Source: Planctomycetaceae bacterium (GTDB lineage: Bacteria > Planctomycetota > Planctomycetia > Pirellulales > Thermoguttaceae). From it: a DNA stretch of 28,305 nucleotides. The position numbers and the translations under genes were made by a program. The DNA lies in contig JAISNF010000396.1 of the NCBI GenBank assembly GCA_031276415.1, positions 1-28,305 of the forward strand, written 5' to 3'. Shown piece by piece: positions 15,777 through 17,211 of the stretch. How positions within the stretch are numbered: the stretch's first letter is position 1; every line of letters starts with the position of its first letter. The notes under the pieces are model-generated. The model ran no database searches and was not told the origin of the DNA. It saw nothing but the letters and a program-made list of their open reading frames with translations.

Positions 15777-15826
15777 AAATAATTGATTTCATTTATTTAC
15801 AGTTGGAAATTAAGACGGAAACAAAG

Positions 15827-15906
15827 AATTGTCCGCAGAGAACACAAATAAACACAGATTATTTTCAAAAATTATCTGCGATTATCAACGTCATCTGCGG
15901 ACAATT
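15827..15906. repeat. Family A palindromic element, copy 3
   Basis: Perfect 13-bp terminal IR aattgtccgcaga / tctgcggacaatt, located between coaD and the TPR gene. Confidence 0.8.
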
Positions 15907-15940
15907 ATTGTACGCATTCATCAAAAAGTCAATTCTCATT

Positions 15941-16441
15941 TTATTTTACACGAACCATTTGAATTCGTTCTAATACTTTTCCGACAATTGGTTTCGGTAA
16001 AAAATTGGTGAATGTCGCTTCATCGGCAATTGGAGCGATTTCTTTAATAAGCGAACTGGAAACATGCGCCAGTTCGCCGTCCGCAATCATAAAAAGTGTT
16101 TCAATATCTGGAGCCAAACGACGGTTTGCCATCATCATCGTCAACTCAGCAGGAATATCCGTGATCGGACGCACTCCGCGAATCATAATCTTCGCTCCTG
16201 ATTGTTGTACAAATTTAACCGTCAACCCCTGATAAGTAACCACTTTAATATTGTTCAGATGAGGCGTTGAAAGCCGAATCAACTCAACCCGCTCATCCGC
16301 TGAAAAAAGCGGCTGCTTTTCCAAATTAACACCAACTCCAATAACCAAATATTCAAAAAGCCGGCTTGCCCGCTGGACAATATCAAGATGCCCCAACGTA
16401 AACGGATCAAATGAACCCGGATAAACTGCCCAAAATTTCAT
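15941..16441 (-). CDS. coaD: Phosphopantetheine adenylyltransferase
   Basis: AVYPGSFDPFTLGHLDIVQRASRLF (HxGH motif), MIRGVR, NRRLAPDIETLFM and HVSSSLIKEIA; 166 aa. Confidence 0.97.
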   Translation of the reverse strand: MKFWAVYPGSFDPFTLGHLDIVQRASRLFEYLVIGVGVNLEKQPLFSADERVELIRLSTPHLNNIKVVTYQGLTVKFVQQSGAKIMIRGVRPITDIPAELTMMMANRRLAPDIETLFMIADGELAHVSSSLIKEIAPIADEATFTNFLPKPIVGKVLERIQMVRVK

Positions 16442-16481
16442 TGATTGTAAAACCCTTTTATGAAAAAATTAAATTATTTAT

Positions 16482-17199
16482 GGTAACTTCTAATACCCGT
16501 TTTTTTATTTAACCACTTTATTTAACCACAGAGAACACAGAGTAAATTTTTAATTGGAATCAAAATGTTATTTAATATCATACTTCTCACATTTGACAAT
16601 TCGGTTTGCGTTTTTGAACAAAATCAACAAATTTCGACGGGATTAACAGAATTTACAAGATTGGCAAATAGAATATTCCAGGTGATATTTTCTAACAAAA
16701 CCGACTTTTAAAGTGTAATGAGTACATAATTAACTTGTAACCGTTCACGGCTATTTAAAAAAGTTGGTGTTTTTTTATTTGTAACTATTCAGTGGAATTT
16801 ACGAAAACGTATTGTCATTGTTTCAACAAACCTCATTTTTACCTAATTTTTCTTAACAAAACAACCTCAGTAGCAAAAAATCATAAAAAATCCGACCTCA
16901 TTACCTCATTAAAAATATTCATAATAAATGAGGTAATGAGGTTGTTGTGTGTTATCTTCATTTGGCTACTGAGGTTTTTTTGGTGAATCGTTTTGTTAGG
17001 AAAAATTAGGTTGAAATGAGGTTATCGAAGATAAACACGAAACCATTGAGGCAATTCTATGGAATCGTTATAAATTCAGCTGTGAACGGTTACATTAACT
17101 TTTGATCTAAAATAACTTTTTAAAATTAAATTTTCTTCTCTGTGAACTCTGTGGTTAAATATTCTGCGTTAAATAAAAAAGCGGTTATTAGAAGTTACC
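16482..17199. mobile_element. ~720-bp multi-layer nested palindrome of non-autonomous elements
   Basis: Six concentric IR pairs: 16482-16542/17138-17199, 16736-16752/17078-17094, 16777-16799/17053-17075, 16829-16862/16990-17023, 16863-16874/16965-16976 and 16895-16911/16927-16943. Confidence 0.75.
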
Positions 17200-17211
17200 T
17201 TTATAAATTCG

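What the first reader, a model, noticed from the sequence alone, without database searches (positions are those of the whole stretch)
16482..17199. ~720-bp 'Russian-doll' palindrome with six concentric inverted-repeat layers between rluD and coaD
Seen, outside in: (1) ggtaacttctaata...aaccacagagaacacagag / ctctgtgaactctgtggtt...tattagaagttacc, ~60 bp; (2) tgtaaccgttcacggct / agctgtgaacggttaca, 16/17; (3) atttgtaactattcagtggaatt / aattctatggaatcgttataaat, ~18/23; (4) aacctcatttttacctaatttttcttaacaaaac / gttttgttaggaaaaattaggttgaaatgaggtt; (5) aacctcagtagc / gctactgaggtt; (6) acctcattacctcatt / aatgaggtaatgaggt. The three outer layers all start with GTAAC. The left arm has ~150 extra bp, including a lone gattaacagaatttacaagatt arm. 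Inference: either serial insertion of related elements into each other's centres, or one giant hairpin acting as ssDNA, cruciform or dsRNA in a possible rluD-coaD transcript. I recognise no named element class with this structure.
Basis: partly seen in the sequence, partly recalled or inferred. Interest (0 to 1): 0.8.

Follow-up and report, generated by a model that had tools for sequence, protein, structure and literature searches.

The report
Nested MITEs forming a 718-bp palindrome
The big "Russian-doll" palindrome between rluD and coaD is a pile-up of small non-coding transposons (MITEs) inserted into one another's centres in a MITE-ridden planctomycete genome, which is a known kind of selfish-DNA structure and not a new functional element.

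Summary
Window 16482-17199 is a 718-bp imperfect palindrome (fold -240 kcal/mol, z = -16). It is not one structure. It breaks into repeat families with very different copy numbers in the same 4.3-Mb Planctomycetota MAG.

- **Layer 1** is a roughly 210-bp MITE with GGnAACTTCTAA ends and 4-bp target duplications. Intact copies without guests exist elsewhere, and an IS5-family IS with similar ends is present.
- **The "extra 150 bp"** is a separate 146-bp MITE with about 30 copies.
- **Layers 2-3** are a 357-bp MITE with GTAACCGTTCACGG ends. It is flanked here by a perfect 8-bp duplication (ATTAACTT). These are IS66-family hallmarks, and the same ends bound an IS66 transposase gene in a related genus.
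- **Layers 4-6** are one 195-bp palindromic core repeat with about 38 copies, also found in other shells. How it moves is unresolved.

The closest relative has rluD and coaD only about 115 bp apart. The AT-rich centre of the layer-1 family is a recurrent insertion site.

This is a new member of a known kind (nested bacterial MITEs). Interest is modest. The assembly could not be checked with reads.

The parts
16477..16481 (.). TTTAT, left copy of the direct repeat flanking the whole composite (target-site duplication of the outer MITE)
   Evidence: TTTAT is repeated at 17200-17204. The family makes 4-bp duplications: exact in 44 of 126 motif pairs.
16482..16579 (+).
   Evidence: Hundreds of hits in more than 300 contigs. 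Intact 205-214-bp copies at C419:2198-2402 and C407:2059-2272 join this arm directly to the right arm.
16580..16725 (+).
   Evidence: 28-30 full-length copies in unrelated contexts; 24 of 30 are flanked tATA...TATa. The window copy is 95% identical to the family consensus.
16729..16736 (.). ATTAACTT, left copy of the 8-bp target-site duplication of the inner MITE A; part of the centre of family C
   Evidence: The identical 8-mer lies at 17094-17101.
16737..17093 (+).
   Evidence: About 25 copies at 83-96% identity. This end motif occurs 325 times with at most 2 mismatches and gives an exact 8-bp duplication in 21 of 54 pairs.
16779..16801 (+).
   Evidence: 151 genomic hits with at most 2 mismatches; no target duplication detected.
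16829..17023 (+).
   Evidence: About 38 copies. They lie inside A shells and inside other shells with heptamer-repeat arms. No target duplication was seen. It is the part most widely shared among species of the genus.
17094..17101 (.). ATTAACTT, right copy of the 8-bp duplication of MITE A; part of the centre of family C
17102..17199 (+). Right arm of the outer MITE C, ending TATTAGAAGTTACC
17200..17204 (.). TTTAT, right copy of the direct repeat flanking the composite
15941..16441 (-). coaD (phosphopantetheine adenylyltransferase-type cytidylyltransferase); its start codon lies 40 bp from the composite
   Evidence: PF01467, E = 2.5e-26.
17212..18423 (-). rluD-like pseudouridine synthase; its stop codon lies 12 bp from the composite
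   Evidence: PF00849 and S4 domain.

Best explanation
The palindrome is a stack of non-autonomous transposable elements (MITEs). Each is itself an imperfect palindrome, and each sits near the centre of the next one out. An IS5-type MITE of about 210 bp (family C) lies in the rluD-coaD spacer, 40 bp upstream of coaD. Its AT-rich centre then received two guests side by side: a 146-bp MITE (family B) and a 357-bp IS66-type MITE (family A). Family A already carried a 195-bp palindromic core repeat (D) and spreads with it as one unit. Shown: the separate multi-copy families, their terminal repeats, the 4-bp and 8-bp target duplications, guest-free copies of C, and the short spacer in relatives. Inferred: which transposases move them, namely an IS5-family enzyme for C and an IS66-family enzyme for A. 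Also inferred is why the layers are concentric. These elements prefer AT-rich targets. A guest that lands between intact ends does not stop the host from being mobilised, so composites survive and can amplify. How the D core moves is not resolved. The giant hairpin is a by-product, not a selected structure.
For: Parts of the region have very different copy numbers in the same genome. C arms give more than 100 hits per position, B about 40, A arms about 15-25 and the D core about 57-75. Alignment boundaries are sharp at 16482, 16580, 16727, 16735-37, 16829, 17023, 17093-95 and 17199.

Intact C copies of 205-214 bp join the two arms directly.

Family C. The core AACTTCTAA occurs 690 times against about 75 expected. 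An exact 4-bp duplication is found in 44 of 126 pairs, only at offset 3. The window copy is flanked by TTTAT.

An IS5-family IS is present at C184:1-1263 (NF033581, 245 bits; DUF772 + DDE_Tnp_1). Its ends are GGGAACCTCTAATAAT and GGGCATCTCTAAAAAT, against GGGAACTTCTAAAAAC for the MITE.

Family A. GTAACCGTTCACGG occurs 325 times with at most 2 mismatches and heads many sub-families. An exact 8-bp duplication is found in 21 of 54 pairs, only at offset 0. The window copy is flanked by ATTAACTT on both sides.

IS66 elements are described as having ends starting GTAAGCG and 8-bp direct repeats (PMC11946415). The exact 14-mer bounds an 1121-bp element encoding an IS66 transposase (NF033517, 209 bits) in a genome of another genus of the order (L105:375-1495). 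An internally deleted IS66 remnant with GTACCCGTTCACGG ends sits at C41:5295-6255.

Family B has 28-30 copies with defined ends.

Relatives. The closest public relative has rluD and coaD about 115 bp apart, and its sequence is homologous right up to the insertion point. Another species has a 368-bp spacer without these families.

The centre of C is a recurrent target. There are 146 intact centres and about 45 with a 91-107-bp guest at TAAT. At least 10 further distinct insertions by three element classes, plus the IS5 element itself, fall within about 25 bp.
Against: No sequencing runs could be listed, so the contig was not checked against reads. It comes from a short-read MAG of 663 contigs and runs through 718 bp of repeats.

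The IS5 element's ends match the MITE ends at only 12-13 of 16 positions, and no complete copy with both ends is assembled. No intact IS66 transposase was found in this 85%-complete genome.

The window's outer duplication is 5 bp (TTTAT), whereas the family norm is 4 bp.

The relative's spacer is not a precise empty site. About 70 bp present there is missing or diverged in the window.

The D core shows no target duplication, and no 'empty' A shell was found. So D's entry into A by transposition is not shown.

The local-symmetry test of reconstructed target sites was only weakly positive (p about 0.025).
Confidence: 0.9

Rival explanations
1. The region is one functional giant hairpin. It would act as a cruciform, an ssDNA structure, or a dsRNA in an rluD-coaD transcript, for example as an RNase III substrate or an attenuator, and would be kept by selection.
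For: The predicted fold is very stable (z = -16). It lies between two co-oriented genes, 40 bp upstream of coaD, so read-through RNA would contain it.
Against: Every part is a dispersed multi-copy repeat with transposon hallmarks. Relatives with the same gene pair lack it. No Rfam family reaches its threshold; only weak plant-miRNA-like hairpin hits appear. In 40 copies of the core repeat, the arms decay independently: 309 one-sided breaks, and 74 double changes against 77 expected by chance, of which only 29 are Watson-Crick. Promoter and terminator scans are no better than shuffles.
Confidence: 0.03
2. It is an assembly artefact. The metagenome assembler joined unrelated repeat copies into a chimeric path between rluD and coaD.
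For: The genome is a fragmented MAG of 663 contigs. TIR cores are enriched at contig ends (162 of 1326 ends against 35 of 1326 internal windows). No reads could be laid.
Against: The nesting is internally coherent. A perfect 8-bp duplication brackets A and TTTAT brackets C. Removing B, A and one duplication copy rebuilds a C element of about 215 bp, like the intact copies. Both unique flanks match the gene order of the closest relative. The repeat segments differ from their closest paralogues by at least 4%, which gives an assembler unique words.
Confidence: 0.05
3. It is a single inverted duplication, or a foldback of one sequence, rather than nested insertions.
For: Overall two-fold symmetry.
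Against: The layers occur separately and with different copy numbers. The left side holds a 146-bp element with no partner on the right. The internal junctions carry direct, not inverted, repeats.
Confidence: 0.01

Closest known systems
Bacterial MITEs (non-autonomous derivatives of insertion sequences), including nested or composite MITEs
   Same: They are small, non-coding, AT-rich and multi-copy. They have terminal inverted repeats and fixed-length target duplications, and their ends resemble those of full-length IS elements in the same or related genomes. Elements sit inside one another. Nesting 'as Russian dolls' is already mentioned for prokaryotic TEs (PMC3852290). Nested MITEs are classic in plants (own knowledge: Jiang and Wessler 2001).
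   Different: These families (GGnAACTTCTAA, GTAACCGTTCACGG, ATACTTCTCACA, and the ACCTCATT core) are, as far as my searches show, undescribed. They are confined to one uncultured Planctomycetota genus and its order. The depth of nesting is unusual: three to four levels, with two guests in one centre.
IS66-family insertion sequences
   Same: Family A ends start GTAA, and insertions make 8-bp direct repeats. The exact 14-bp end bounds an IS66 transposase gene in a related genus.
   Different: Family A has no transposase or accessory genes and is only 357 bp long. Its interior is a palindromic core repeat unrelated to IS66.
IS5-family insertion sequences (IS5 group, 4-bp duplications; own knowledge of ISfinder descriptions)
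   Same: Family C makes 4-bp AT-rich duplications. Its GG-initiated ends resemble those of the IS5-family element at C184, C290, C40 and C16.
   Different: The ends match at 12-13 of 16 positions, not identically. Mobilisation by that enzyme is inferred only.
IS elements that target palindromic repeats (IS1397 / ISKpn1 inserting into the loops of REP/BIME palindromes; own knowledge)
   Same: There is recurrent insertion into the central, loop-forming part of another palindromic repeat.
   Different: The insertion points here are spread over about 25 bp, and many insertions lie elsewhere. That fits a preference for AT-rich targets better than a strict structure-specific mechanism.
REP / REPIN elements mobilised by RAYT (Y1) transposases
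   Same: The D core is a long hairpin-forming repeat without target duplications. The genome encodes three Y1_Tnp genes.
   Different: Those three genes are flanked by their own, different GC-rich palindromes, not by the ACCTCATT motif. D is much longer than a REP doublet.

Membership tests
MITE (non-autonomous IS derivative) | Short and non-coding | tested here: met
   C is about 210 bp, B 146 bp and A 357 bp. The longest ORF inside the region is 64 aa with no support.
MITE (non-autonomous IS derivative) | Terminal inverted repeats | tested here: met
   GGTAACTTCTAATA / TATTAGAAGTTACC; GTAACCGTTCACGG / CTGTGAACGGTTAC; ATACTTCTCACA / TGTAATGAGTAC.
MITE (non-autonomous IS derivative) | Target-site duplication of fixed length | tested here: met
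   For C, 4 bp in 44 of 126 pairs at one offset only. For A-type ends, 8 bp in 21 of 54 pairs at one offset only. Window: TTTAT x2 and ATTAACTT x2. B is flanked tATA...TATa in 24 of 30 copies, so the duplication length (TA or TATA) is ambiguous. D shows none.
MITE (non-autonomous IS derivative) | Many dispersed copies in the genome | tested here: met
   74.7 kb (1.7% of the genome) in 382 of 663 contigs resembles the 770-bp region.
MITE (non-autonomous IS derivative) | Ends shared with an autonomous IS that can supply the transposase | tested here: inconclusive
   C has a similar but not identical IS5-family element in the same genome. A has identical ends on an IS66 element in another genus, and only a deleted remnant in this genome. 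No partner was found for B (PF13358 absent) or for D.
MITE (non-autonomous IS derivative) | Presence/absence polymorphism at orthologous sites | tested here: inconclusive
   The closest relative has a 115-bp spacer that is homologous up to the coaD-side junction, but it is not a precise empty site.
IS66-family-derived element (family A) | Ends starting GTAA and 8-bp direct repeats | tested here: met
   The family description is from PMC11946415.
IS5-family-derived element (family C) | 4-bp duplication and ends like an IS5-family IS | tested here: met
   Ends match at 12-13 of 16 positions.
REP/REPIN with RAYT (considered for core D) | The cognate Y1 transposase gene is flanked by the same repeat | tested here: not met
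   The three Y1_Tnp genes are flanked by other palindromes. No ACCTCA(T/G)T motif lies within 700 bp of any of them.
Curated structured RNA family (Rfam) | Score at or above the gathering threshold | tested here: not met
   Best hits score 22-27 bits against thresholds of 57-140, and all are plant or animal miRNA hairpin models.

The most novel reading that the evidence does not exclude
Insertion into the centres of other palindromic MITEs might be structure-directed, that is, targeted at extruded cruciform or hairpin tips, rather than a simple AT-rich target preference. The TSD-less ACCTCATT core (D) might be a new class of palindromic mobile element that rides inside different MITE shells. 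Together these would give self-propagating 'Russian-doll' composites specific to this Planctomycetota genus.
Probability: 0.12. Interest if true: 0.55.

Novelty: new member of a known kind. Interest (0 to 1): 0.3.

Why it matters
The result turns an apparently exotic 718-bp palindrome into an annotated stack of transposon derivatives. It also documents a heavy, genus-specific MITE load in uncultured Planctomycetota. There are several end classes, with hundreds of termini per genome, but 0 to 646 copies of one end motif among sister species. This load probably explains why these MAGs are so fragmented. It provides markers for strain typing and a natural system for studying target choice by IS5- and IS66-type transposases. 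It also warns against reading long intergenic hairpins in these genomes as regulatory RNAs. It does not reveal a new mechanism.

Tried and rejected
- **Rfam scan of 15800-17900.** Only sub-threshold miRNA-like hairpin hits.
- **Long pairs of C-type ends 1.5-2.9 kb apart, as candidate autonomous elements.** They enclose ordinary genes such as enolase, glucose-6-phosphate isomerase and an efflux adaptor, not transposases.
- **Pfam searches of the own genome.** DDE_Tnp_1_2, DDE_Tnp_4, ISL3, IS1595, IS256 (Transposase_mut) and DDE_3 gave nothing. DDE_Tnp_IS66 gave only sub-threshold remnants.
- **Y1/RAYT genes as movers of the D core.** Their flanking repeats differ from D.
- **Layer-3 motif as a third TIR class.** It is abundant, but no duplication length stands out.
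- **Local two-fold symmetry of reconstructed target sites against matched controls.** Only a weak shift: mean 14.5 against 13.9 of 30, p about 0.025.
- **Dating the layers by identity to family consensus.** B is 95% and A is 91%, but the C alignment is too heterogeneous to use.
- **Sequencing runs holding the locus.** None was listed in two tries, so no read-level check and no RNA evidence.
- **Promoter/terminator scan.** Not above shuffles.
- **Literature search.** I searched for described MITEs in Planctomycetes and found nothing specific.

Full report
**Observation.** The sequence shows the described inverted repeats at the stated places. As a single strand, 16470-17215 folds into one long hairpin of -240.4 kcal/mol. 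Dinucleotide shuffles give -131.7 +/- 6.8, so z = -16. The flanks are a CoaD-type cytidylyltransferase gene (15941-16441, minus strand) and an S4 + pseudouridine-synthase gene (17212-18423, minus strand). The next gene encodes a YTV-repeat protein, a planctomycete signature.

**The region is a mosaic of dispersed repeats.** A search of the window's own assembly (4.3 Mb, 663 contigs, 40% GC, 85% complete) with the 770-bp spacer gave 151 listed matches. A position-by-position tally shows abrupt steps in copy number:

| Segment | Window coordinates | Hits per position |
|---|---|---|
| Outer arms (C) | 16482-16579 and 17095-17199 | more than 100 |
| Element B | 16580-16727 | about 40 |
| A arms | 16736-16828 and 17024-17094 | about 15-25 |
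| Core D | 16829-17023 | about 57-75 |

Alignment starts and ends pile up at exactly these boundaries. In all, 74.7 kb (1.7% of the genome, 382 of 663 contigs) resembles this spacer. The end motifs are enriched at contig ends: 162 of 1326 ends against 35 of 1326 internal windows.

**Layer 1 (family C).** Intact copies of 205-214 bp join the left arm directly to the right arm. Examples are C419:2198-2402 and C407:2059-2272.
- The end motif core AACTTCTAA occurs 690 times against about 75 expected.
- If the element starts three bases before that core (GGn), an exact 4-bp direct repeat flanks 44 of 126 motif pairs. No other offset or length gives a signal.
- The window copy is flanked by TTTAT on both sides.
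- The genome holds a multi-copy IS5-family element (C184:1-1263, with pieces at the ends of contigs C189, C40, C290 and C16). Its 373-aa product scores 245 bits on NF033581 and has DUF772 + DDE_Tnp_1 domains.
- That element's ends are GGGAACCTCTAATAAT and GGGCATCTCTAAAAAT, against GGGAACTTCTAAAAAC for the MITEs.
- This makes it the best candidate source of transposase, but the match is 12-13 of 16 positions and no copy is assembled whole.

**The 'extra 150 bp' (family B).** Positions 16580-16725 are a 146-bp element with ends ATACTTCTCACA...TGTAATGAGTAT. It has 28-30 full copies in unrelated contexts, and 24 of 30 are flanked tATA...TATa. This fits a TA or TATA target. No IS630-type transposase was found.

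**Layers 2-3 (family A).** Positions 16737-17093 have about 25 relatives at 83-96% identity.
- The end GTAACCGTTCACGG occurs 325 times with at most 2 mismatches and heads many families with different interiors.
- An exact 8-bp direct repeat flanks 21 of 54 pairs, only when the element starts at the G of GTAAC.
- The window copy is bracketed by ATTAACTT at 16729-16736 and 17094-17101.
- Ends starting GTAA(GCG) with 8-bp direct repeats are the published description of the IS66 family (PMC11946415). A Pseudomonas IS66 end reads GTAACCGTCCGGGCA (PMC12888890).
- In this genome I found only an internally deleted remnant, C41:5295-6255. Its ends are GTACCCGTTCACGG, and it scores E = 6e-32 on NF033517.
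- In a genome of another genus of the same order, the exact 14-mer bounds an 1121-bp element whose ORF scores 209 bits on the IS66 transposase model, above the cut-off. The same end precedes another transposase start at a contig end.
It also heads 151 other short palindromes, and no duplication length stands out. I treat it as a subterminal module of A, of unclear origin.

The shared GTAAC of layers 1 and 2 does not mean one family, because their duplication lengths and candidate transposases differ.

**Layers 4-6 (core D).** Positions 16829-17023 behave as one unit with uniform coverage.
- There are about 38 copies. Roughly half lie inside A shells. The rest lie in other contexts, several with arms made of TATTCAC/TATTAAC heptamers.
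- No target duplication is visible, and no A shell without D was found. How D came to sit in A is therefore open.
- D is the part most widely shared among species of the genus.
- Its hairpin is not conserved by compensatory change. Across 40 copies and 78 pairs there are 309 one-sided breaks. There are 74 double changes against 77 expected if the arms evolve independently, and only 29 of them are Watson-Crick.
- The three Y1 (RAYT-like) genes in the genome carry other flanking palindromes.

**Reconstruction of the locus.** Removing B, A and one copy of ATTAACTT leaves a C element of about 215 bp. Its centre (ATTTAATATCATACATAATTAACTTTTGATC) aligns with the centres of intact copies (ATTTAATATTATCATTGACTTTTGAT).

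The closest public relative is a Planctomycetaceae MAG, with RluD 80% and CoaD 95% identical. It has rluD and coaD about 115 bp apart, and its sequence is homologous up to the coaD-side junction of the composite. About 70 bp of its spacer has no counterpart in the window, so it is not a precise empty site. Only one further species keeps this gene pair adjacent, with a 368-bp spacer holding other repeats.

**Why concentric?** Among 282 C-type left arms, 146 have intact centres. About 45 carry a 91-107-bp GGCAACTTCTAAAAA element at the same TAAT. This is one event that then amplified as a composite, and it is seen on both strands. At least ten further distinct insertions lie within about 25 bp of the centre:
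- IS66-type ends at five different positions;
- C-type elements at three;
- B in the window;
- a copy of the IS5 element itself (C417).

Duplicated targets are AT-rich. A symmetry test on reconstructed targets was only weakly positive.

My reading is inferred, not shown. The centre of a palindromic MITE is AT-rich and dispensable. It is therefore both a favoured target and a place where a guest leaves the host's ends intact, so composites persist and sometimes amplify. A itself, with D inside, is such a propagating composite.

**Distribution.** The C-type end pattern has 385 exact matches here and none for the reversed control. It occurs in 17 of 24 sampled species of the genus, with 0 to 646 matches each. 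It occurs in none of 16 genomes from other families of the order. The IS66-type 14-mer is abundant in some species of the genus (up to 481 matches) and present at low numbers in a few other genera.

**Function.**
- No curated RNA family matches.
- Promoter and terminator scans are at chance level.
- No RNA or DNA runs could be listed.

An effect on coaD expression or on an rluD-coaD transcript cannot be excluded, but nothing supports it.

**Limits.**
- The contig was not verified with reads.
- The transposase assignments rest on end similarity and duplication length.
- The mobility of B and D is unexplained.

**Verdict.** This is a nested stack of MITEs, a new member of a known kind. It is interesting mainly as a marker of an unusually MITE-rich planctomycete lineage.

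Noticed in passing
own genome: C184:1-1263; also ends of C189, C40, C290, C16, and C417:3218-3500: A multi-copy IS5-family insertion sequence of about 1.4 kb (373-aa transposase, NF033581 245 bits). It is never assembled whole. One copy sits in the centre of a C-type MITE (C417), and one sits inside an A-type MITE (C16).
   Followed up: partly
own genome: C577:4725-5066(-), C9:5993-6337(-), C111:49-393(+): Three Y1_Tnp (RAYT/IS200-like) genes, each flanked by arrays of its own GC-rich palindromes, for example CTTAACCCCGCAGGGGTG...CATAACCGTAGGTG. The same REP-like motifs also occur inside many IS66-type MITEs.
   Followed up: partly
window 22375-22492, 25413, 15751: There are further copies of the GTAACCGTTCACGG end (22492, minus strand) and of the TTGTAAyTATTCAGT motif (15751, 22375, 25413) in the same window.
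   Followed up: partly
own genome, e.g. C281:48-2036, C102:495-2533, C276:1149-3111: Single housekeeping genes (an efflux adaptor, an oxidoreductase-like gene, enolase) are bracketed by inverted C-type MITE ends 2 kb apart. These are probably just MITEs in both neighbouring spacers, but in principle they form composite-transposon-like arrangements.
   Followed up: no
genus-wide (G001-G024): MITE load differs enormously between sister species. The C-type end pattern ranges from 0 to 646 matches and the IS66-type 14-mer from 0 to 481. The two classes have burst in different species: G021 has 646 and 0, while G004 has 201 and 481.
   Followed up: partly
own genome C64, C168, C179, C387, C562 around D-core copies: D cores outside A shells are flanked by variable runs of heptamers (TATTCAC/TATTAAC/TAAACTA). 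Beyond those lies a further palindromic shell, AATTCCGCTTGCGAAACT... / ...GAGTTTCGCAATGCGGAATT, which is yet another nested repeat family.
   Followed up: no
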